Assembly (NCBI GenBank): GCA_040225955.1
Contig: JBECUL010000003.1
Coordinates: 11,952-75,951 of the forward strand
Direction of reading: 5' to 3'
DNA length: 64,000 nt
From: Candidatus Asgardarchaeum abyssi
Lineage (GTDB): Archaea; Asgardarchaeota; Asgardarchaeia; Asgardarchaeales; Asgardarchaeaceae
Part shown: one piece after another, positions 914-33,736 of the stretch
Layout: every line of letters starts with the position of its first letter
Numbering within the stretch: position 1 is the first letter of the stretch
Position numbers and translations under genes: made by a program
The notes under the pieces: generated by a model
What the model was told of the DNA's origin: nothing
Seen by the model: the letters and a program-made list of their open reading frames with translations, nothing else
Databases searched by the model: none

Positions 914-999
914 ATTATCACACCATTATAATTTTACATTTATTTCCTTACGCAAGACTTTTAATTTTTTGTCCACCACCATTTTGGGGAGAAAGTCTG

Positions 1000-1241
1000 C
1001 CTTCCGAAACAGTTAAATGTTTTATGAGCATTTGTGAGTATTGAGGTAGTGTCTGAATGTGGTGGGAGTAAAGCACCGAAAGGACACCGCAATGTGAAAG
1101 GACGCCGCGATGTGGGCTTGTGGGGTTACCCTGAACGGGGTCGAGACCGATGACTTGCTCCCTATGAACCCAGAGGGAGCTGAGGCTGATGTGGCCCAGG
1201 GTGGATGTTCGCTCACCAATGCGGACATTCACTGAACCCCC
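1000..1241 (+). mobile_element. Non-autonomous mini-element, probably IS607/IS200-IS605 (TnpB)-derived, copy 1
   Basis: ~242 bp, GC-richer than flanks, ~91% identical to 33222-33463 with unrelated flanks. Both copies follow TGCC and end GAACCCCC. Retains TnpB-like remnants (C-x-CGGSKAPKGHRNVK; RDVGLWGYPERG). Confidence 0.7.
1109..1241 (+). ncRNA. Putative omega-RNA-like structured RNA scaffold (copy 1); 5' boundary uncertain
   Basis: Hairpins 1157-1163/1174-1180 and 1201-1212/1221-1232 (with G-U pairs) are preserved in copy 2. Position at the element right end matches TnpB omega-RNAs. Confidence 0.45.
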
Positions 1242-1445
1242 AAAACACTCCTTGCATTAATAAATCAAATTATAAGTTCACTGCTCCATAATTTCCTTAT
1301 GATCCATAATAATAGTGAATATATGAAAAAAGAGCATTAGGACATAAATAATCGCAAAATTACTAAAAAGCAGATTAATAAGAGAGATAAAAAAAAGAAA
1401 AATAATTTCATTTTAGGAATTAAAGAATTAAGGAAACACAGATTG

Positions 1446-18499: not shown

Positions 18500-19947
18500 G
18501 AATATCCCCTTCTTTTGACCTCTTTAATATAATTTTCTAACTCTTTTTCAACATCTTTTTCTAATGGCACTTCTGGTTCGTGCTCACTTATTATCTTTTT
18601 TACAACCTCATGGGCACGTTCTACAATATCTTTAGAGCCCATTTGCTCCCATCTTTCCCGTCTCAATCTATCTCCAAGCTTAGGTATGAAATGATCCTTT
18701 CTAACATGTTCAAGGGTGTGTCTTTGTGCCAGAAAATGACCTCCTGGTCCAACGTTTCTTATTATATCAAGCGCTAAAGTTTCTTCGTTAACTTCAATTC
18801 CTTTCATAGCATGATATATCATACCAATGATTTCGTTGTCTATTACTAAGCTTTCCAAGCTTATTGTAAGTGCCAATTCCATTGTTCCTGGGTAGAAAAT
18901 CATATTAATTCCGCCCATGGCAGCCATAAGGCATGTTAAAGCTTTTTCATAGCCTGCTTGCATATCTAATATCTTTGAATCCGTCGCACAAGCAGTTCCT
19001 CTACTTGGTAAACCGTAAAATCTTGCAAGTTGTGCTGATGCTACATTTACGATCCCTATTTCAATAGCTCCTATTGAGATGTAACCAGTTCTCATGTCCA
19101 TTACTGTTCCCACAGTTCCATAAAATACAGGAGTTCCTGGACTAACTAATTGAGCTATAGTTATTGCTGCTAGTACTTCCGCATTTTGGATAACCAGCAA
19201 TCCGGCTAATGTTGCTGGGGCAGTAGCTCCAGCCTGGGGCTCTGAAGCTATATCAACAGGTTGTCTCATTTTTGCAAATTCTATGAGTCCTTCTAATTGA
19301 TCTGCATGCAATTGTAGTGGAGATATTGTGTTACTTGTTGTAAAAATCATAGGCTTCTTTCTAAGTTCCTCCTCCCCACCAGCAATTATAGAAGCCATTT
19401 TCAACATATCCTTAGCTCTTAATCGACCTCGGCATGTACCTTTAATTACCTTATCAGAATTCTTTACACTTTGGAGATATCCATAAACATGAGCAAGGTA
19501 GTCTGGAACTCCCTCTATATGAGGCATAATTGCTCCACTGTGAAGCATATGATAATTTTCCATTGCATCAGCAACCTTAATTAGATTTCCAACATCCTCT
19601 AAATTTGTTCTTCTAACGGTTTTTTTCTCATAATCATAAATGTTTAATCGACCGATCATGGGTTCATATACGACCTTTTTATCTTCTATCGTAACATTAT
19701 GCTTCTTATTCCTCGCGTAGACAGTAAACCTACTAGGAGCTCTTTTTACTTGTTCTTTAATTAGGTATTCTGGGAATTTTACAATTTTTGACTTATCATC
19801 AACATCCGCACCAGCTTTTTTCAGAATTTCTCTAGCTTCATCTAATTGCACAAAGATTCCTATTGTTGATAAAACTTCAAGTGTTGCATAGTGAATTTGA
19901 TAAATATCGTCCTTGGAGAGAATTTTGAGCTGCCCACCTCTAATCAT
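18496..19947 (-). CDS. mttB: Trimethylamine methyltransferase (MttB) superfamily protein, non-pyrrolysine
   Basis: IHYATLEVL, SPLQ, GATAPATLAG, NAEVLA, YGLPSRGTACATDSK, QAGYEK, GPGGHFL. Confidence 0.9.
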   Translation of the reverse strand: MIRGGQLKILSKDDIYQIHYATLEVLSTIGIFVQLDEAREILKKAGADVDDKSKIVKFPEYLIKEQVKRAPSRFTVYARNKKHNVTIEDKKVVYEPMIGRLNIYDYEKKTVRRTNLEDVGNLIKVADAMENYHMLHSGAIMPHIEGVPDYLAHVYGYLQSVKNSDKVIKGTCRGRLRAKDMLKMASIIAGGEEELRKKPMIFTTSNTISPLQLHADQLEGLIEFAKMRQPVDIASEPQAGATAPATLAGLLVIQNAEVLAAITIAQLVSPGTPVFYGTVGTVMDMRTGYISIGAIEIGIVNVASAQLARFYGLPSRGTACATDSKILDMQAGYEKALTCLMAAMGGINMIFYPGTMELALTISLESLVIDNEIIGMIYHAMKGIEVNEETLALDIIRNVGPGGHFLAQRHTLEHVRKDHFIPKLGDRLRRERWEQMGSKDIVERAHEVVKKIISEHEPEVPLEKDVEKELENYIKEVKRRGYS

Positions 19948-27021: not shown

Positions 27022-30000
27022 ATGGTATTTGTATTGCTCCTATCACTTTCTTTTGCCATTTACAATGTTTCAGAAGAACACCAAATTTCATTAAATGAGG
27101 AACATAATAATACTTTCGTAAAATATCCCGAAACTATTGGCTTCACACAAACATCGTCACAATGGTGGAACACATCCTATCTCTATAGGATCCCCATTAC
27201 TATTTCAGGAAGCAATGGGATTGAAAGAAAAAACGAGCCTATAAGTGTGCATATAACATTTCCACTAAGTCATGCAAGAATTAACAGTATTCGTATTATA
27301 AACCCCAACCTAAAGCAGGTTCCATATCAGATAACCCAACAAGTTCTAGATGGGGACTACTATACAGAAGTAACCTTAGTATTTCCCGTTAATATTACAA
27401 GTGACAGCACTACCTATTATATTTATTACACATCACAGCAAGTTGAACCACCTTCCTTTTCTGACCAATTACAAGTTTCTTTTGATGGTACATCCCTACT
27501 AATTGATAATAGGCTATACTCAGCTGGTATTAGTGTTGGCACTGGGTTTGATAATTTGATTATCAACAATCATAACTTCGCTGAGGTTAACAATTTTGCT
27601 CCAATTGCTCAAAATGGTTATTCATTTATAGCCGAATATGTTTCTATAAAGAGTAGCGATGAAATACACATTATATCTTGGTATGATAATACGTTTTTCA
27701 GAGTTGTTGATCCAACAGATGGTACAATAATCATACAAGGAATATTGAATGAAGGAGAGCAATATGTATATTCTTCCCCAGCCGATGCTCTGTTAAAGAT
27801 AGAGTCAAACAATACAATTACATTCCAAATATATAAATACCCACCAGATAGGCTTCCGACCGATCTATCAAATGATGACACTTGGTGCTATACTGGTGCT
27901 ATGTTATATGCTTGGGTGAGATACCATCTATATATAGCTACCTTTGACAAATCTGCAAAAATAGAAATATGGGATTTGCAAAACGATGATAGCGTGGACG
28001 ACACTGATAATTTCTACGGATCCAATGCAATATTATTATCACCTGGTGAGGTTTGGAGCTATACCTCCTTTGATGGAGACGTAATCCGTATAAAGTCAAA
28101 TACAACAATTTATGTGCTAGGTGATTCAGTTGAAGCATCAACTGGTAGGCCAGATGGGCCAGAAACATTTTCAACTGCTTATGGAATTAATCAAACATAC
28201 TATACTGTTTTTGGAGCCCCTCTTGACGGAGGAGGAGGCTATATTGGTATCATGGCCCTTCAGGATAATACCTATGTAGAAGTTGTGGATAAAGCAGCAG
28301 CAACAAGCATCTCTAATGTTCTTAATTCTTTGGAAGTTGTGGTTCACAATGTAGCCGATGGTTGGTTTGACATAAAATCCGATAAACCAATCGTAGTTTA
28401 TACCAGTATGCATCAAGAAGCTGGGAAAAATCCTAATATCTACGGCCTTGAAATACTTGGTAATAGTAAAGACTATTATATCATAAATCCAAATGATCCA
28501 AATAGCGGCACCACATATAAGTTAAGAATAACTTATACGGCACTTGATGACAATACTGCCGTATATATTTTGCAGCAAGACAACTTAAATCCCTCTCCAG
28601 ATATATTACTAAAATATCAAAGTAATACCTTTGATGTATCTCCTGGCCAAGGTGTAGTTATTTATTCAAATAAACCACTTGCTGTTAGACTGTCTTTTGT
28701 GGATGCCGATGGTCTCCCCCTTGCTGGCCTTCAAGGTGAATCCCTTTTAGTTATGGAACGAAGGCCCTCAATTACAAAAATCCAGGAGATTGAAAAAGGG
28801 GCCGTTTTTGCAAAGTATAAATTGTATTGGAATTCTACCGATAACATGTTAAATGCGACAGATATTGTGACCTTTTACTATAAGTATCCCCTTATAAAAT
28901 TTAATAGAACTATCTGGTGGGGAACATCTAATACAAGATATTCATTTGAGCCCATGATTTTTCACTATGACACAATTCAACAGTCATCAATGTATTTAAG
29001 TGATGTGATAGCTGATAGTAGTTTATATTCCTTAATGGATTTTGCTAGAGCTACAGCCTATGTAAGCGGATGGAGCTCATCAGACTACACTGGGATAGGC
29101 CTTATTATTGAGAGTGTTAATTCAATAGGTGCTGAAGGCCTTCCAGCTTTTGCATATTATGAATTGCCTTGTGGATTATCTATCACCAGCGGAAGATTTG
29201 ATATATCACTTAATGTTTATGAACTTAGTACCTTTTCAGGATCAGCGTACTCAATTAAGATAAATGGAGCCATAATTGCTGGTAATAATTTTGCCTTAAT
29301 ATCTGAGATTGATTCACTATATCAATCAGTATTGTATCCCTTGCTAGGAACTCTTGGCGATGAAGAAATGCTAATGAATTTACTTGTATCTATCTTTGAT
29401 CTCGATGGAAATCCAGTTGTTAACGCTAATACAACATTGTATTCCTCTGCTGGTGTAAAGCTTTTCAGTGAGTATACCAATTCAACTGGTGAAGTCTTCT
29501 TTGATAAAATACCTGAGTTGGGAAACTATACACTAAACGTGTTTTATTCTACTAAATATAATTTAGATGTAGAGGCAGTAGAGGTAGTTTCATTTACTGC
29601 TAGTGATATTGGTACTGTTAAAAAAGTAAATGTTACTCTAGCATTAGCAAATTTCACGATAAAAGTTGTTGATCTTTTAGGTGATGCTATTTCTGGTGAT
29701 GCAAGAGTAAGGTTAAAGAATGCTTCTAATTCGGCGCAGATAATTGCTGAATCTGTAACGAATTCAAGTGGTTTTGCTTATTTTGACTATCTGCCCGGAA
29801 CTAATTACATAATAGAATCTCACTATATACCCGGAGCTACTGTATCAATAGACGCATACAACTTTACTCATCATACCTCATTTAATTTAAATTTAACAAA
29901 AGTTATCACAGTAGTAGAATTGTTAAATACAATTTCTGTGAGAGTCCTGAATTATGATGGAAACCCTGTAACAGATGCCTTTGTTATTAGGACGAACCTT

Positions 30001-33000
30001 GATGTCTCTCAGGATACATATCAAACATCAGCAACTACAAATGCCACTGGCTGGGTCACTTTTGAAAGAATACGTGTAGGTAATACAAGATTTTTTGTAA
30101 GTTACGCAAATGATTATGATCAAGATATAATAAATGCAACAATAACTTACCTTTATGACAATACGAGTGCGGCTGTTGATGTTATCCTTCCCATGGCGTC
30201 TCTCATTGTAAGGGCTTATGATGTTTCACATTCAAATTATATTCAAGGCGCACTTATGTACGTTAATAACACAGATGGGTCCTCGGTAACTTATTCGTCA
30301 ACAAATCAATCTGGTTATGTTGTATTCGAAAATATTGCATGCGGCATTAAGTATAATGTTAGTGTTGTAAAGAATAATAATTGGAATTGGACATTATTAA
30401 CCCTAAATGATACAACCTTCATTCAGCTTAATATATCAATATCTTGGACTCCCACGGATACTATATTAATGCTGTATAATTCAACAATTATAGATGCCGT
30501 CTGGGATGACAATGTAACTATTGTAGTAGGCTTTATTAATCGAACAGATTTCCAAACAGGGTTAATAGACATACCCCTACAAGAAAATGAAGTTGATTCG
30601 CTAACGTATAAAATTATACTTGGAGATACAGTTATTGCCACAGGTAATTTTACGTATGATACAACAACTGGAAATTGGACAGCAAAACTCGATATTGGTC
30701 AATTAAAATTAAATGCTAGTAATTCCTTCTTAATAGTAATAGAAGGAGATGCTCGTGCAAATTCAACTACGCTTGTGCAGTTTAATGACCCTACTCCAAC
30801 AACCTTGAAACTTATAGTAGATTTTGCAGATACTACTGCCCTGTATACATATAACGATATTTATGTTGAATGGGGATTTAACGTATCTCTTAGTTTTACC
30901 TTTGTTGATGGGCATGGTATCTACTTGAAATCAGCAATAACTCGAGCATCCGTCTTACAAGATACTGAGACGTATCATCTATATGGTTCCCTTATAAATC
31001 TTGGCAATGGAACTTATGCATTTCAAGGAAACACTGGTGATGTTAATGGCTTGAATCTACCAGTAGGTAATTATACATTAGTTATTTTTATGGGTGAATT
31101 TAATTACAATAACCAGACCATATATCTTCCATTACATGTAACTTCAAGGCAGACATCAATTGATTCATCAATATCAAGCATATCTGTTAATTGGAGTAAT
31201 CCATTTACATTTTATGTGAACTATTCTTCTTATGGCGTATCTTTGAATGATGCAAATGTCTGGTTGCAATGGGATACGGGGTTAAAGCTCAATTACTCAT
31301 CATATTCAAATGGTTTATACACCTTTGTTGCGAATACATCTTCTATTGATGTTGGAGTACACACATTAACAGTTTATGCAAGCCTATCGAACTATACTGA
31401 AAAATCAATATTGATTACAGTTGAGGTACTTCCTTTACCGACTGAAATAGACCCTATCTCTCAAATTCAATTCTCCATAAATTGGTCAGTGCCAGTCACA
31501 GTAGTCGTAGAGTATAGAGACCTAAATCATTCTGCCAAGATCCCTGATGCAACAGTTTCAATGACAAACTGGAATAGCTCCGCTTTTTCATATGAATATT
31601 CTGATGGAAAATATTATATTACGTTCCTTAGCCAGTATGTACCACCAGGAAATTATAGTATTACTATAAAGATTTCAAAGCCAAACTATCAACAGGCACA
31701 ACTACTTGTAAAAATTAATGTCCTTATTCCCCTAAAAATACAACTTTTGACAGAACAGATTGAGTTCGTCTATTGGCTTGAAAAATTTTCCATAAACGCT
31801 ACAGTCATCAACCAATATAACGGAAGCGTTGTAGAAAATATAACACTAGTCTACTCTCAAGAAAACTTAGGGATTGACAATTTAGAAATACCATACGATC
31901 TCGATTTGGGGCATTTCTATATAGTGGTTAACACGACAATGTTTGATTCTGAAGGAACATATTTATTTAGATTGAATATAATGAATAGCGGTGTAATTGT
32001 CGCTCCAGTAGATGTATTTATTGTAATACAAAAGAGACCAATCAATATGGTCTACCCTACCCCATTAGTAATACCTGCCTACTATGCTGATATTATTAAT
32101 CTGACAATATCTTTGAGAGACGCATACAACGAATTTCCAGTAACATCTCCAGATTCTGTTGTTGCTAGTTTAAGCGTAGGAGAGATGTTTATTTGCAATA
32201 ATATATCAACAATATACGAAGTATCTCCTGGCGATTATAGATTCACTATAAATACAGATGGTCTGAACTTAATGGCAGGTCAGACATATATTTTGACTAT
32301 CTCATTCCAAAAAGTAGGATTTCAAATAGATACCATAATAACATACACTATATTTATCCAAGAAACTCCTGCTAGCGTAGATGTTTATGTTGAAAGCATT
32401 GTGTATTGGGGCGAAAATGTAACATTTGTTGCATCCTACCAAGATACAGTACATAATACTTCAATTAATGCTAGTAATGTAACTTTAAATATCGCGGGTA
32501 ATGTATATTCAATGATGCCTTCAGAAAATGTGTTTGTCCTAACATTAAATACCTCACAATTTACAACCGGTACCTACTTAGTCAAGGTATCTGCTGTTGC
32601 TAATAATTATGAATTAGCTGACCATTCCTTCCAGCTCCAAATACTCAATAGAACAACACAAATCCGAGTTGAATTTTACCCAGAAGAAAGAATAATAATT
32701 CAAGGTTCTGTCGAAAAAATGAAAATATTCGTAGAGTATATTGATTCGTTCAGCAATAGACCCATTCATAACGCAACTGTTACTTTTTCAACTGGCGGTA
32801 GCATTATGTACACACTACAAGAATACCCAAATGGAACTTATATTCTAATTTTAGATATGACAAATTTCACAACAGTGGGAAATTATACATTCATTATCTC
32901 GGCCAAAAAGGCGAACTATGAGTTTAAGAGTCAGCTGTTTCAGATAACTATAGAGGAGCCATATATCGCAATTGGTGGTGTAAAAATACCTGTTCGGTCG

Positions 33001-33249
33001 GTTGTTAATATTGGTGGTAGTGTATCGGTAGCAGTAGCACTTATGGGTGTTGCATTGTACGGATACAGAAATTACAAAATCCCTTGGATAATCCGTATTA
33101 CCGATAAAGCCATAAGAGCTCTCATTAAAGGAAAACCGGTTGACTTCTCTAAGTTCCCAGACTTCAGTGACTTATTAGAAGATGCAATAGCTCCTATGTT
33201 CGCTAGCATAAAGATACAATGCCCTCCGAAACAGTTAAATATTTTATGA
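27022..33249 (+). CDS. Giant cell-surface glycoprotein (signal peptide, Ig-like repeats, C-terminal TM anchor); last codons come from the inserted element
   Basis: 2075 aa, many NxS/T sequons, WWN..YRIPITI N-terminus, I.SDKPI.V repeats, D.DG.PV.NA repeats, TM near residue 2000 then a basic tail. Confidence 0.8.
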   Translation: MVFVLLLSLSFAIYNVSEEHQISLNEEHNNTFVKYPETIGFTQTSSQWWNTSYLYRIPITISGSNGIERKNEPISVHITFPLSHARINSIRIINPNLKQVPYQITQQVLDGDYYTEVTLVFPVNITSDSTTYYIYYTSQQVEPPSFSDQLQVSFDGTSLLIDNRLYSAGISVGTGFDNLIINNHNFAEVNNFAPIAQNGYSFIAEYVSIKSSDEIHIISWYDNTFFRVVDPTDGTIIIQGILNEGEQYVYSSPADALLKIESNNTITFQIYKYPPDRLPTDLSNDDTWCYTGAMLYAWVRYHLYIATFDKSAKIEIWDLQNDDSVDDTDNFYGSNAILLSPGEVWSYTSFDGDVIRIKSNTTIYVLGDSVEASTGRPDGPETFSTAYGINQTYYTVFGAPLDGGGGYIGIMALQDNTYVEVVDKAAATSISNVLNSLEVVVHNVADGWFDIKSDKPIVVYTSMHQEAGKNPNIYGLEILGNSKDYYIINPNDPNSGTTYKLRITYTALDDNTAVYILQQDNLNPSPDILLKYQSNTFDVSPGQGVVIYSNKPLAVRLSFVDADGLPLAGLQGESLLVMERRPSITKIQEIEKGAVFAKYKLYWNSTDNMLNATDIVTFYYKYPLIKFNRTIWWGTSNTRYSFEPMIFHYDTIQQSSMYLSDVIADSSLYSLMDFARATAYVSGWSSSDYTGIGLIIESVNSIGAEGLPAFAYYELPCGLSITSGRFDISLNVYELSTFSGSAYSIKINGAIIAGNNFALISEIDSLYQSVLYPLLGTLGDEEMLMNLLVSIFDLDGNPVVNANTTLYSSAGVKLFSEYTNSTGEVFFDKIPELGNYTLNVFYSTKYNLDVEAVEVVSFTASDIGTVKKVNVTLALANFTIKVVDLLGDAISGDARVRLKNASNSAQIIAESVTNSSGFAYFDYLPGTNYIIESHYIPGATVSIDAYNFTHHTSFNLNLTKVITVVELLNTISVRVLNYDGNPVTDAFVIRTNLDVSQDTYQTSATTNATGWVTFERIRVGNTRFFVSYANDYDQDIINATITYLYDNTSAAVDVILPMASLIVRAYDVSHSNYIQGALMYVNNTDGSSVTYSSTNQSGYVVFENIACGIKYNVSVVKNNNWNWTLLTLNDTTFIQLNISISWTPTDTILMLYNSTIIDAVWDDNVTIVVGFINRTDFQTGLIDIPLQENEVDSLTYKIILGDTVIATGNFTYDTTTGNWTAKLDIGQLKLNASNSFLIVIEGDARANSTTLVQFNDPTPTTLKLIVDFADTTALYTYNDIYVEWGFNVSLSFTFVDGHGIYLKSAITRASVLQDTETYHLYGSLINLGNGTYAFQGNTGDVNGLNLPVGNYTLVIFMGEFNYNNQTIYLPLHVTSRQTSIDSSISSISVNWSNPFTFYVNYSSYGVSLNDANVWLQWDTGLKLNYSSYSNGLYTFVANTSSIDVGVHTLTVYASLSNYTEKSILITVEVLPLPTEIDPISQIQFSINWSVPVTVVVEYRDLNHSAKIPDATVSMTNWNSSAFSYEYSDGKYYITFLSQYVPPGNYSITIKISKPNYQQAQLLVKINVLIPLKIQLLTEQIEFVYWLEKFSINATVINQYNGSVVENITLVYSQENLGIDNLEIPYDLDLGHFYIVVNTTMFDSEGTYLFRLNIMNSGVIVAPVDVFIVIQKRPINMVYPTPLVIPAYYADIINLTISLRDAYNEFPVTSPDSVVASLSVGEMFICNNISTIYEVSPGDYRFTINTDGLNLMAGQTYILTISFQKVGFQIDTIITYTIFIQETPASVDVYVESIVYWGENVTFVASYQDTVHNTSINASNVTLNIAGNVYSMMPSENVFVLTLNTSQFTTGTYLVKVSAVANNYELADHSFQLQILNRTTQIRVEFYPEERIIIQGSVEKMKIFVEYIDSFSNRPIHNATVTFSTGGSIMYTLQEYPNGTYILILDMTNFTTVGNYTFIISAKKANYEFKSQLFQITIEEPYIAIGGVKIPVRSVVNIGGSVSVAVALMGVALYGYRNYKIPWIIRITDKAIRALIKGKPVDFSKFPDFSDLLEDAIAPMFASIKIQCPPKQLNIL

Positions 33250-33463
33250 GCATTTATGAGTACTGAGGCAGTGTCCGAATGTGGCGGGAGTAAAGCACCG
33301 AAAGGACACCGCAATGTGAAAGGACGCTGTGATGTGGGGCTTGTGGGGTTACCCTGAACGGGTCAAGACCAATGACTTGCCCCCCATGAACCCAGAGGGG
33401 GCTGAGGCTGATGAGGCCCAAGGTGGATGTTTGCTCATCAATGCGGACATCCACCGAACCCCC
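33222..33463 (+). mobile_element. Non-autonomous IS607/TnpB-derived mini-element, copy 2, inserted in the 3' end of the surface-protein gene
   Basis: ~91% identical to 1000-1241 and supplies the stop codon of ORF 27022..33249. Removing it restores CAA TGC CCT GTA AGG GTT GCA GAG TAA (or CAA TGC CTG TAA). Confidence 0.72.
33331..33463 (+). ncRNA. Putative omega-RNA-like structured RNA scaffold (copy 2)
   Basis: GCCCCC/GGGGGC and GTGGATGTTTGC/GCGGACATCCAC stems conserved relative to copy 1. Confidence 0.45.
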
Positions 33464-33736
33464 TGTAAGGGTTGCAGAGTAATTTCTCTCTTCTTTTTAT
33501 TCTTCTTCGGTTTAACATAGTATCACATCTATGAGTGTATTTAAGAGATTTTAGTGTATATGATGCTCATTATTCTATAAAACAAGATAAAAAATAATCC
33601 CAAAAGCTAGAGTTCTAACTAAATTATTAAATAGAGTGGTCTAGGCTTAAATAAGTTTGAATATTAAGGTAACTCTTCCATTAAGAGAGAAAAATATATA
33701 GCAAACTTTAAACCTTTTAGAAAAACTTAAGATTAA

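What the first reader, a model, noticed from the sequence alone, without database searches (positions are those of the whole stretch)
1000..1241. Protein-free mini-transposon that appears to carry its own promoter and an omega-RNA-like guide scaffold (two copies 32 kb apart)
Seen: 1000-1241 and 33222-33463 are both ~242 bp and align with 20 substitutions (19 transitions) and 2 compensating 1-nt indels, while their flanks are unrelated. Both follow TGCC and end GAACCCCC. The left end has a BRE/TATA-like GAAACAG-TTAAAT(A/G) and ~10-bp tandem motifs (TTTATGAGCA/TTT(G/A)TGAGTA), with an inverted relative near the right end. The middle reads as fused TnpB remnants: a frameshifted Zn-ribbon C-x-CGGSKAPKGHRNVK, then RDVGLWGYPERG. 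Established: IS607 serine recombinases recombine at a GG/CC core and bind repeated end motifs, and TnpB omega-RNA overlaps the tnpB 3' end and right end with the guide taken from the 3' flank. Inference: this is an internally deleted IS607-family element mobilised in trans that can still make a guide RNA for a TnpB elsewhere, so each insertion would create a new guide (AAAACACTCCTTGCAT..., TGTAAGGGTTGCAGAG...). TGCC may be the target/TAM motif.
Basis: partly seen in the sequence, partly recalled or inferred. Interest (0 to 1): 0.8.

Follow-up and report, generated by a model that had tools for sequence, protein, structure and literature searches.

The report
Gene-less IS607 mini-transposon with guide-RNA scaffold
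The two 242-base repeats belong to a family of about 18-20 protein-free jumping elements in an Asgard archaeon; each keeps the two ends, the promoter-like box and the folded guide-RNA scaffold of an IS607-type transposon, a well-documented example of a kind of selfish DNA that is already known.

Summary
Window 999-1240 and 33221-33462 differ by 19 transitions, 1 transversion and 2 one-base indels, and their flanks are unrelated. They are two of at least 18 copies in this 2.6-Mb Asgard MAG.

- **Ends:** there are no inverted repeats and no target duplication. One allelic empty site and two paralogous sites show insertion at a single CC in a G-CC target. CC is then present at both junctions, as expected of an IS607 serine transposase.
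- **Right half:** the right 119 nt is a strongly covarying RNA module. In other Asgard genomes it overlaps the 3' end of full-length tnpB genes and ends exactly at the transposon boundary, so it is an omega-RNA scaffold.
- **Middle:** it holds remnants of tnpB codons, including the first half of the zinc ribbon.
- **Left end:** it matches the tnpA promoter region of autonomous serine-tnpA/tnpB elements, one in genome G075 and a more distant one in this genome.

Transcription, TnpB loading and the mobilising transposase are inferred, not shown. Stand-alone mobilised omega-RNAs and omega-RNA-bearing mini-elements are already published. This scan had also reached the same reading on other copies of this family in this genome.

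The parts
999..1001 (+). Copy A left junction: target G (999) plus CC crossover core (1000-1001)
   Evidence: G-CC is present at 17 of 18 left junctions (one reads GCT). The empty site holds one CC and the occupied site holds CC at both junctions.
1002..1049 (+). Copy A left end: BRE/TATA-like CGAAACAG-TTAAATGT (1005-1020) and two direct TTKRTGAGYA motifs (1020-1030, 1031-1040)
   Evidence: It is homologous to the left ends that lie directly upstream of serine tnpA in G075:C56 and in IS-A (C44). In both, the tnpA ATG sits 31-34 nt after the start of the TATA-like box. Promoter activity and TnpA binding are inferred.
1050..1088 (+). 5' hairpin GUGUCU...GGACAC enclosing UGGUG...CACCG; this is the remnant of the first CxxC half of the tnpB zinc ribbon
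   Evidence: Single-sequence fold. It aligns at 86% to the CPRCGGRMKRRKG codons of G075 tnpB. Independent mini-elements in G075 keep sequence from this same point onward.
1089..1121 (+). Linker with an 18-nt direct duplication (absent from the 223-225-nt subfamily) and the MWG-linker codons
   Evidence: The family alignment shows two length classes that differ by 18 nt.
1122..1240 (+). Omega-RNA scaffold core: closing helix 1122-1127/1235-1240, P2 1129-1131/1137-1139, K-turn-like module 1145-1153/1182-1187, hairpin 1157-1162/1175-1180, terminal hairpin 1200-1212/1221-1233 with the inverted end motif in its loop (1211-1220)
   Evidence: Covariance model R1. On 55 distinct sequences from 16 genomes, 28 of 32 pairs show compensatory changes and 92.6% of cells are paired. 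The module overlaps the 3' end of full TnpB ORFs in relatives.
1241..1260 (+). Predicted guide of copy A (CAAAACACTCCTTGCATTAA), read from the flank
   Evidence: Assigned by position only. The scaffold ends at the transposon boundary, as in characterised TnpB systems. The genome holds no other match with 2 or fewer mismatches.
33221..33462 (+). Copy B (G 33221; CC cores 33222-33223 and 33461-33462; omega core 33345-33462), inserted six codons before the original stop of a 2075-aa Ig-repeat protein gene
   Evidence: Alignment and a model score of 136 bits. The flanks joined through a single CC are colinear with a paralogue on contig C133 down to its stop codon. The ORF now ends inside the element at 33247-33249.
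33463..33482 (+). Predicted guide of copy B (CTGTAAGGGTTGCAGAGTAA)
   Evidence: Assigned by position only.

Best explanation
The repeat is a non-autonomous deletion derivative of an IS607-family insertion sequence (serine-recombinase tnpA + tnpB + omega-RNA). About 50 nt of the left end are fused to the last ~190 nt of the parent. The left end carries the tnpA TATA/BRE box and two direct repeat motifs. The retained 3' part holds tnpB codons from the zinc ribbon onward with a further internal deletion, plus the right end; this is the omega-RNA gene. Shown here: the family structure, the ends, the insertion chemistry footprint, homology to tnpB 3' ends and to serine-tnpA left ends, and RNA covariation. 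Inferred: a serine TnpA supplied in trans excises the element as a double-stranded circle and recombines its CC core with a genomic G-CC site. The left-end promoter would start transcription around 1043-1048. The RNA folds into the scaffold, ends in ...GAACCCC and runs 16-20 nt into the flank, which becomes the guide. A compatible TnpB made elsewhere would load it and cut the vacated donor joint (GCC + flank), so that homologous repair restores the element. The resident copy would be spared because its own pre-guide sequence CCC differs from GCC at position -3.
For: - Copy number and boundaries.
- No TIR or TSD. The allelic empty site in a 99.5%-identical strain (L076) reads ...TTTTTGCCAAAATG..., against the occupied ...TTTTTGCC[TTCCG...GAACC]CCAAAATG.... 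Two paralogous uninterrupted sites are colinear with flanks joined through one GCC.
- In this genome the right half is 82% identical to the tnpB 3' end plus right end of IS-A (C97, C135). The IS-A left part on C44 encodes a 208-aa MerR-HTH + Resolvase TnpA followed by the tnpB start.
- G075:C56 carries serine tnpA, a 366-aa tnpB with C-terminus GVTPNGGETDDLLPMNPEGAEVDVPQGG (mini-element remnant: GVTLNGVETDDLLPMNPEGAEADVAQGG), a right end ...GCTGAACCCC and a left end GCT|TCGCGAAACTGTAAATATTTGGT.
- RNA: the + strand folds with z = -2.9 and the - strand with z = -0.9. Covariation is strong. Many G-U pairs would be C-A mismatches on the other strand.
- Published mechanism for IS607 TnpA(S)/TnpB: strict GG core, TAM TGGG against right-end TCGG, discrimination at -3 (10.1101/2023.11.20.567912).
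Against: - No expression data exist, and the promoter rests on sequence and geometry alone.
- No autonomous element with the same left end is in this MAG, so neither the mobilising TnpA nor the matching TnpB is identified. The IS-A end motifs and terminal hairpin differ from those of the mini-element.
- The empty-site footprint alone would also fit an IS605-type insertion 3' of NGCC. The serine assignment rests on the relatives.
- Some TnpBs of the closest clade carry N instead of D in the RuvC-III motif (INRQ), so the partner nuclease may be rearranged or inactive.
- Alignment A5 was fitted to the model, which inflates pairing counts. Independent MAFFT alignments A3 and A4 gave the same trend.
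Confidence: 0.85

Rival explanations
1. It is a mobile but RNA-silent relic. The element is an IS607 deletion derivative that still transposes, and the omega-RNA structure is only inherited from the parent. It is neither transcribed nor used by any TnpB.
For: No expression evidence exists. No closely matching tnpB is in the MAG. Within the mini-family itself variation is low, so most covariation comes from comparison with tnpB-linked relatives. The hairpin loop carries a putative TnpA-binding motif, which alone could keep the right end conserved.
Against: Independent mini-families keep the whole scaffold from the zinc-ribbon hairpin to the end, fused right behind the TATA box. This holds here, for two mini-families in G075 and for the 108-nt version L075, which keeps only about the last 84 nt. 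Within-family changes in the terminal hairpin are mostly G-U/G-C or doubly compensated, e.g. CGC/GCG to CAC/GUG in the C14 copy. Stand-alone omega-RNAs work in trans in other systems (PMC10691335).
Confidence: 0.3
2. It is an IS200/IS605-type PATE, moved as single-stranded DNA by a Y1 tyrosine TnpA that inserts 3' of an NGCC target. The right-end hairpin would then be a DNA hairpin.
For: The footprint would be the same: no TSD, a left flank ending GCC, a right end ending CCCC. The genome has Y1_Tnp fragments. The right end forms a hairpin.
Against: Elements with homologous left and right ends encode MerR-HTH + resolvase TnpA directly behind that left end. The left end has no subterminal hairpin but has direct repeats, with an inverted copy at the right end, as in IS607. 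The best Y1 hit is interrupted by a stop and the others are fragments, none near these ends. G-U wobble pairs are strand-specific, which favours RNA.
Confidence: 0.05
3. It is a host-domesticated or trans-targeting guide RNA family: the guides direct a TnpB or TldR-like protein to other genomic or foreign targets.
For: Eighteen different guides would exist. Domesticated TnpB regulators are known (10.1101/2023.11.30.569447, listed).
Against: Each 16-nt flank matches only its own locus. There is no second perfect site, and the near matches show no enrichment for a preceding GCC. Copies are polymorphic between near-identical strains. One insertion alters the end of a gene (where flanks joined through a single CC run colinear with the C133 paralogue to its stop codon). 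Earlier scan notes report other copies inside genes; I did not check them.
Confidence: 0.05

Closest known systems
IS607-family elements with TnpA(S), TnpB and omega-RNA, e.g. the Clostridium botulinum CboIStron and its laboratory mini-IS (10.1101/2023.11.20.567912)
   Same: Serine-recombinase relatives and asymmetric ends. A 2-bp core is present at both junctions and once in the empty site. The omega-RNA overlaps the tnpB 3' end and stops at the right boundary. The target/TAM (here G-CC, there TGGG) differs from the right-end terminus (here CCCC, there TCGG) at position -3.
   Different: The element is natural and protein-free. The core reads CC on the RNA strand. The host is archaeal (Asgard). 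There is no group I intron. The omega-RNA sequence family is different and has no Rfam match.
Stand-alone mobilised omega-RNAs of OMEGA systems (Altae-Tran et al. 2021, as summarised in PMC10691335) and omega-RNA-bearing PATE-like elements of IS605 in Geobacillus (PMC10055086)
   Same: These are transposon ends plus an omega-RNA gene, with no effector or transposase, in multiple copies in genomes that also hold effector-bearing loci. They are expected to depend on TnpA and TnpB in trans.
   Different: Those described in detail belong to IS200/IS605 (Y1 TnpA, ssDNA hairpin ends). This one derives from IS607, and the deletion has placed the tnpA promoter box directly in front of the scaffold.
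SMN1, the 320-bp non-autonomous element of Sulfolobus islandicus mobilised by ISC1733 (Berkner and Lipps 2007, cited in PMC3718332)
   Same: An archaeal, ORF-less, ~0.3-kb element dependent on the transposase of a tnpA/tnpB-type IS, with observed mobility.
   Different: I could not read the primary paper because it is not held. No sequence comparison was made, and an omega-RNA role for SMN1 is not stated in the text I read.

Membership tests
IS607 family (non-autonomous derivative) | Autonomous relatives with the same ends encode a serine-recombinase TnpA with an N-terminal MerR-type HTH | tested here: met
   C44 TnpA, 208 aa: MerR/HTH_17 + Resolvase. G075:C56 has Resolvase plus an HTH N-terminus and is frameshifted. 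No such element with an identical left end is in this MAG.
IS607 family (non-autonomous derivative) | No terminal inverted repeats and no target-site duplication; the same 2-bp core at both junctions and once in the empty site | tested here: met
   Allelic empty site L076 against C61, paralogous sites on C5 and C133, and 18 junction pairs.
IS607 family (non-autonomous derivative) | Subterminal repeated motifs in the left end, with inverted copies in the right end, that bind TnpA | tested here: inconclusive
   The motifs TTKRTGAGYA x2 (1020-1040) and inverted ATTGGTGAGC (1211-1220) are present, and they are conserved in G075 left ends and in related right-end loops. Binding cannot be tested here.
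IS607 family (non-autonomous derivative) | Mobilisation by the serine TnpA | not testable with these tools
   There is only indirect evidence: insertion polymorphism between strains 99.5% identical in the flanks.
TnpB omega-RNA (OMEGA guide RNA) | The scaffold is encoded at the tnpB 3' end and right end and terminates at the transposon boundary | tested here: met
   The same module overlaps the last ~105-140 nt of 366-470-aa TnpB ORFs in G075, G058, G041, G047, G005, G022, G037 and G104 and ends at the boundary.
TnpB omega-RNA (OMEGA guide RNA) | Conserved secondary structure supported by covariation | tested here: met
   28 of 32 pairs show compensatory changes. 92.6% of cells are paired, against 75% in shuffles and at most 60.5% when slid. 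MAFFT-based checks agree.
TnpB omega-RNA (OMEGA guide RNA) | Transcribed, bound by TnpB, and guiding TAM-dependent cleavage | not testable with these tools
   No RNA-seq or biochemistry is available. An intact 416-aa TnpB of the more distant IS-A exists in the protein database.
MITE (classical) | Terminal inverted repeats and a fixed-length target-site duplication | tested here: not met
   The ends GCCTTCCG... and ...CTGAACCCC are not inverted repeats. No duplication beyond the CC core is present.
IS200/IS605 PATE | Subterminal hairpins at both ends and relatives carrying a Y1 TnpA | tested here: not met
   There is no left-end hairpin. Relatives with these ends carry serine TnpA. The Y1 hits in the genome are broken and unlinked to these ends.

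The most novel reading that the evidence does not exclude
The Asgard omega-RNA family carried by these elements contains a conserved K-turn-like module (CC-RAU-GA opposite GA-GG). If so, the archaeal K-turn protein L7Ae would be a built-in cofactor of the TnpB ribonucleoprotein. The mini-elements would then be expressed guide-only hyperparasites that compete with tnpB-bearing elements for the nuclease. I found no paper that links TnpB omega-RNAs with K-turns or L7Ae.
Probability: 0.2. Interest if true: 0.6.

Novelty: new member of a known kind. Interest (0 to 1): 0.35.

Why it matters
The element is a clean natural example of the minimum an IS607 element needs: about 50 nt of left end and about 190 nt of right end, or 25 + 84 nt in the 108-nt version.

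It shows that the guide-RNA gene is what survives when both proteins are lost. It also extends guide-only mini-elements, documented so far mainly for IS605 in bacteria, to serine-recombinase elements of Asgard archaea.

The G-CC target against the CCCC terminus gives a testable TAM and self-avoidance prediction for an uncharacterised TnpB clade. The covariance model can be used to annotate this RNA, which Rfam lacks.

For genome annotation it explains GC-rich islands in this AT-rich genome, contig breaks, and at least one altered gene end.

Tried and rejected
- **Rfam:** the gathering and E-value scans gave no family for the element.
- **Left-end pattern in 185,579 species genomes:** only three 21-nt matches in unrelated bacteria, about the number I estimate by chance, with no further similarity.
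- **Family and class scopes of the genome search:** they returned only the genome itself, which is the sole representative of its class in the collection.
- **Left end against 400 Asgard genomes:** only G075 is truly related. The G023 and G205 matches were chance.
- **Protein search with the 40-aa C-terminal remnant:** no hits, because the query is too short.
- **RNAalifold helices:** GUCG/UGAC (1140-1143/1151-1154) and GGCU/GGCC (1184-1187/1193-1196) were not supported by more distant sequences. A K-turn-type C-stem (1145-1148/1184-1187) fits better.
- **RNAalifold pairing of the left terminus with 1115-1120:** the pairing is invariant, so it is uninformative.
- **L076 as a second empty site:** its left part joins copy A's flank to a different locus, so it is a chimeric or recombinant contig. 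Only its internal junction was used.
- **Guides as trans-targeting RNAs:** no second perfect target exists.

Full report
**Observation.** Window 999-1240 and 33221-33462 are homologous over 242 nt. They differ by 19 transitions, 1 transversion and 2 single-base indels, and similarity stops sharply on both sides. The element is about 58% G+C. The window averages 30-39% per 2-kb block and the genome 34%.

**Copy number.** This is not a two-copy repeat.
- BLAST against the window's own assembly (2.64 Mb, 189 contigs, 93% complete) finds 25 matches. Sixteen are full-length; the rest are truncated or cut by contig ends.
- There are two length classes, 242-243 nt and 223-225 nt. They differ by one unit of an 18-nt direct duplication.
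- Family-wide, variant alleles are 84 transitions against 17 transversions.

**Boundaries and insertion footprint.** All copies begin G-CC|TTCCGAAAC and end CTGAACC-CC. The base before G is A, C or T but never G. The fifth C seen in both window copies is flank. There are no terminal inverted repeats and no target duplication.

A metagenome contig from a strain 99.5% identical in the flanks (L076) lacks the copy present on contig C61.
- Empty site: ...TTTTTGCCAAAATG...
- Occupied site...TTTTTGCC-TTCCG...GAACC-CC-AAAATG...

One CC in the target therefore becomes CC at both junctions. Two further copies, including copy B, have paralogous uninterrupted sequences elsewhere in the genome. These are colinear, without gaps, with the flanks joined through a single GCC.

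This is the footprint of a serine recombinase exchanging strands at a 2-bp core. It was shown experimentally for an IS607-family TnpA (strict GG core; 10.1101/2023.11.20.567912). On its own the footprint would also fit an IS605-type insertion 3' of NGCC, so the relatives decide between the two.

**Relatives in this genome.** The right 120 nt is 82% identical to the 3' end of a tnpB gene plus its downstream end on contigs C97 and C135. I call this element IS-A; it ends ...GACAGACCCC.
- The left part of IS-A lies on contig C44. A TTTAAATG box is followed 31 nt later by a 208-aa TnpA with MerR-type HTH and Resolvase domains, then by the start of tnpB.
- The full IS-A TnpB (416 aa, D/E/D residues present) is in the protein database. 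It is 77-81% identical to Thermococcus TnpBs.
- The IS-A end motifs and terminal hairpin differ from those of the mini-element, so IS-A is a cousin and not the parent.
- No element with the mini-element's left end and a gene is present in this MAG.

**Relatives elsewhere.** I built a covariance model of the right 119 nt (R1).
- It finds 18 full or near-full copies here.
- It finds matches in 16 of 151 sampled genomes of the same phylum, several of them multi-copy.
- In many of these genomes the module overlaps the last ~105-140 nt of a 366-470-aa TnpB ORF and ends exactly where homology to other copies ends.

The closest autonomous relative is G075:C56. It has:
- a left end GCT|TCGCGAAACTGTAAATATTTGGT;
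- a serine tnpA, frameshifted in that copy;
- a 366-aa tnpB ending ...GVTPNGGETDDLLPMNPEGAEVDVPQGG...;
- a right end ...GCTGAACCCC.

The mini-element reads GVTLNGVETDDLLPMNPEGAEADVAQGG in the same frame. Its stop codon lies just before the terminal ACCCC. Its 1057-1083 segment aligns to the CPRCGGRMKRRKG zinc-ribbon codons of that tnpB.

G075 also holds its own mini-elements with the same left end, GCC|TTGCGAAACAGTTAAAT. Among 400 genomes of the phylum only G075 shares this left end. A scan of 185,579 species genomes gave only chance 21-mers.

**RNA.** The + strand folds better than shuffles (z = -2.9) and the - strand does not (z = -0.9). The supported architecture is:
- a closing helix between GGGGUY and the terminal RACCCC;
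- a short hairpin, P2;
- a C-stem plus RAU bulge plus tandem GA/GA, which fits the K-turn consensus (my reading; positions are conserved in 41-51 of 55 sequences);
- a covarying hairpin with the loop AUGAACCCAGA;
- a terminal hairpin of variable length and sequence.

Counts by alignment:

| Alignment | Result |
|---|---|
| MAFFT A3 | 7 of 19 pairs with double changes |
| MAFFT A4 | 11 of 32 pairs with double changes, 96% of cells paired |
| Model-fitted A5 (55 distinct sequences) | 28 of 32 pairs with double changes; 92.6% paired, against 75% in shuffles and at most 60.5% when slid |

The model-fitted alignment leans towards the structure, but all three agree. Frequent G-U pairs would be C-A mismatches on the other strand. 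The element has no Rfam match.

**Left end as promoter.** In IS-A and in G075:C56 the tnpA ATG lies 31-34 nt after the start of the TATA-like box. That geometry fits a leaderless archaeal mRNA (the promoter rule is my own knowledge). In the mini-element the same distance from TTAAATGT (1013-1020) falls at about 1043-1048, just before the 5' hairpin at 1050. The deletion has thus put the tnpA promoter box in front of the scaffold. This is inference; no expression data exist.

**Mechanism.** A serine TnpA acting in trans moves the element through a CC/G-CC exchange. The transcript would carry scaffold plus a flank-derived guide. A compatible TnpB would cut the vacated GCC+flank joint and spare the resident CCCC+flank, which parallels TGGG against TCGG in the CboIStron. 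Each 16-nt flank matches only its own locus. This fits homing and retention rather than trans-targeting.

**Known or new.**
- Stand-alone mobilised omega-RNAs that work in trans are described (PMC10691335).
- PATE-like elements that "often encode omega-RNAs" are described (PMC10055086).
- A 320-bp archaeal non-autonomous element dependent on ISC1733 is known (PMC3718332).
- This scan's earlier follow-ups on other copies of this family in this genome, and on analogous elements in other Asgard genomes, reached the same reading.

I therefore rate this a new member of a known kind. Its useful specifics are the allelic empty site, the G-CC/CCCC logic, the autonomous relative in G075, the covariance model and a possible K-turn.

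**Context in the window.**
- Copy A lies between the 3' end of a NuoB-like gene (1446-1922, - strand) and the start of a luciferase-like monooxygenase gene (2-913, - strand), 85 nt upstream of the latter.
- Copy B sits at the end of a 2075-aa Ig-repeat protein gene. The reconstructed original end ...IQCPVRVAE* has become ...IQCPPKQLNIL*.

Noticed in passing
window 1145-1153 and 1182-1187 (same positions in all family members): There is a K-turn-like signature in the omega-RNA core: C-stem GACC/GGCU, a 3-nt bulge RAU, and tandem GA opposite GA. The GA and bulge positions are conserved in 41-51 of 55 distinct sequences from 16 genomes. I found no paper linking TnpB omega-RNAs with K-turns or L7Ae.
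   Followed up: partly
L075:165-270 (metagenome Ga0180301_10234937): This is a 108-nt micro-version of the element: 25 nt of left end joined directly to about the last 84 nt (from the P4 hairpin to the end), still flanked by GCC and ending GAACCCC. It suggests very small end requirements.
   Followed up: partly
G000 contig C135:1533-1836 (L025/L041): A different deletion derivative of IS-A: a 72-aa fragment of the serine tnpA is fused directly to the last 131 nt of the right end. Solo right-end fragments of IS-A also lie at C61:3620-3740, C63:1-77 and C73:3395-3438.
   Followed up: partly
L055:1588-2226 (- strand; genome G006 contig C96): A 212-aa ORF with an HTH and a weak LAGLIDADG_3 match (21.7 bits, cut-off 22.5) sits between a tnpB gene and its omega-RNA module. 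It resembles the WhiA/meganuclease-like cargo mentioned in PMC10691335.
   Followed up: partly
P0001 and P0013 (IS-A TnpB against Thermococcus kodakarensis TnpB): The IS-A TnpB of this Asgard MAG is 77-81% identical to TnpBs of Thermococcus species. This points to recent transfer of this IS607 lineage between phyla, or to contamination of the bin (7.8% estimated).
   Followed up: no
L107-L118 (genome G075): In G075 the same left end GCC|TTGCGAAACAGTTAAAT heads at least two mini-element types with different internal RNAs. One resembles the 3' end of the 396-aa TnpB on G000 contig C1. One serine transposase system may therefore serve several omega-RNA families.
   Followed up: partly
window 27022-33249 and 33221-33482: Copy B replaced the last five codons of a 2075-aa Ig-like repeat protein with seven element-encoded codons. 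A paralogue on contig C133 keeps the original type of end.
   Followed up: yes
L076:1-300 against window 946-1100 and C61:2654: The metagenome contig joins copy A's left flank and left end to a short-class right half and to a different locus. This is either an assembly chimera across the repeat or recombination between copies.
   Followed up: partly
window 18888-18987 (- strand): There is an Rfam PYLIS_3 (mttB pyrrolysine insertion element) match at 53.7 bits. Earlier notes on this window describe the mttB as pyrrolysine-free. The match may simply reflect conserved coding sequence.
   Followed up: no
TnpB C-termini in L081, L082 and L055: Several TnpBs of the clade closest to the mini-element read INRQLNA where relatives read IDRQLNA in the RuvC-III motif. 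The catalytic site may be rearranged or inactive in part of this clade.
   Followed up: no
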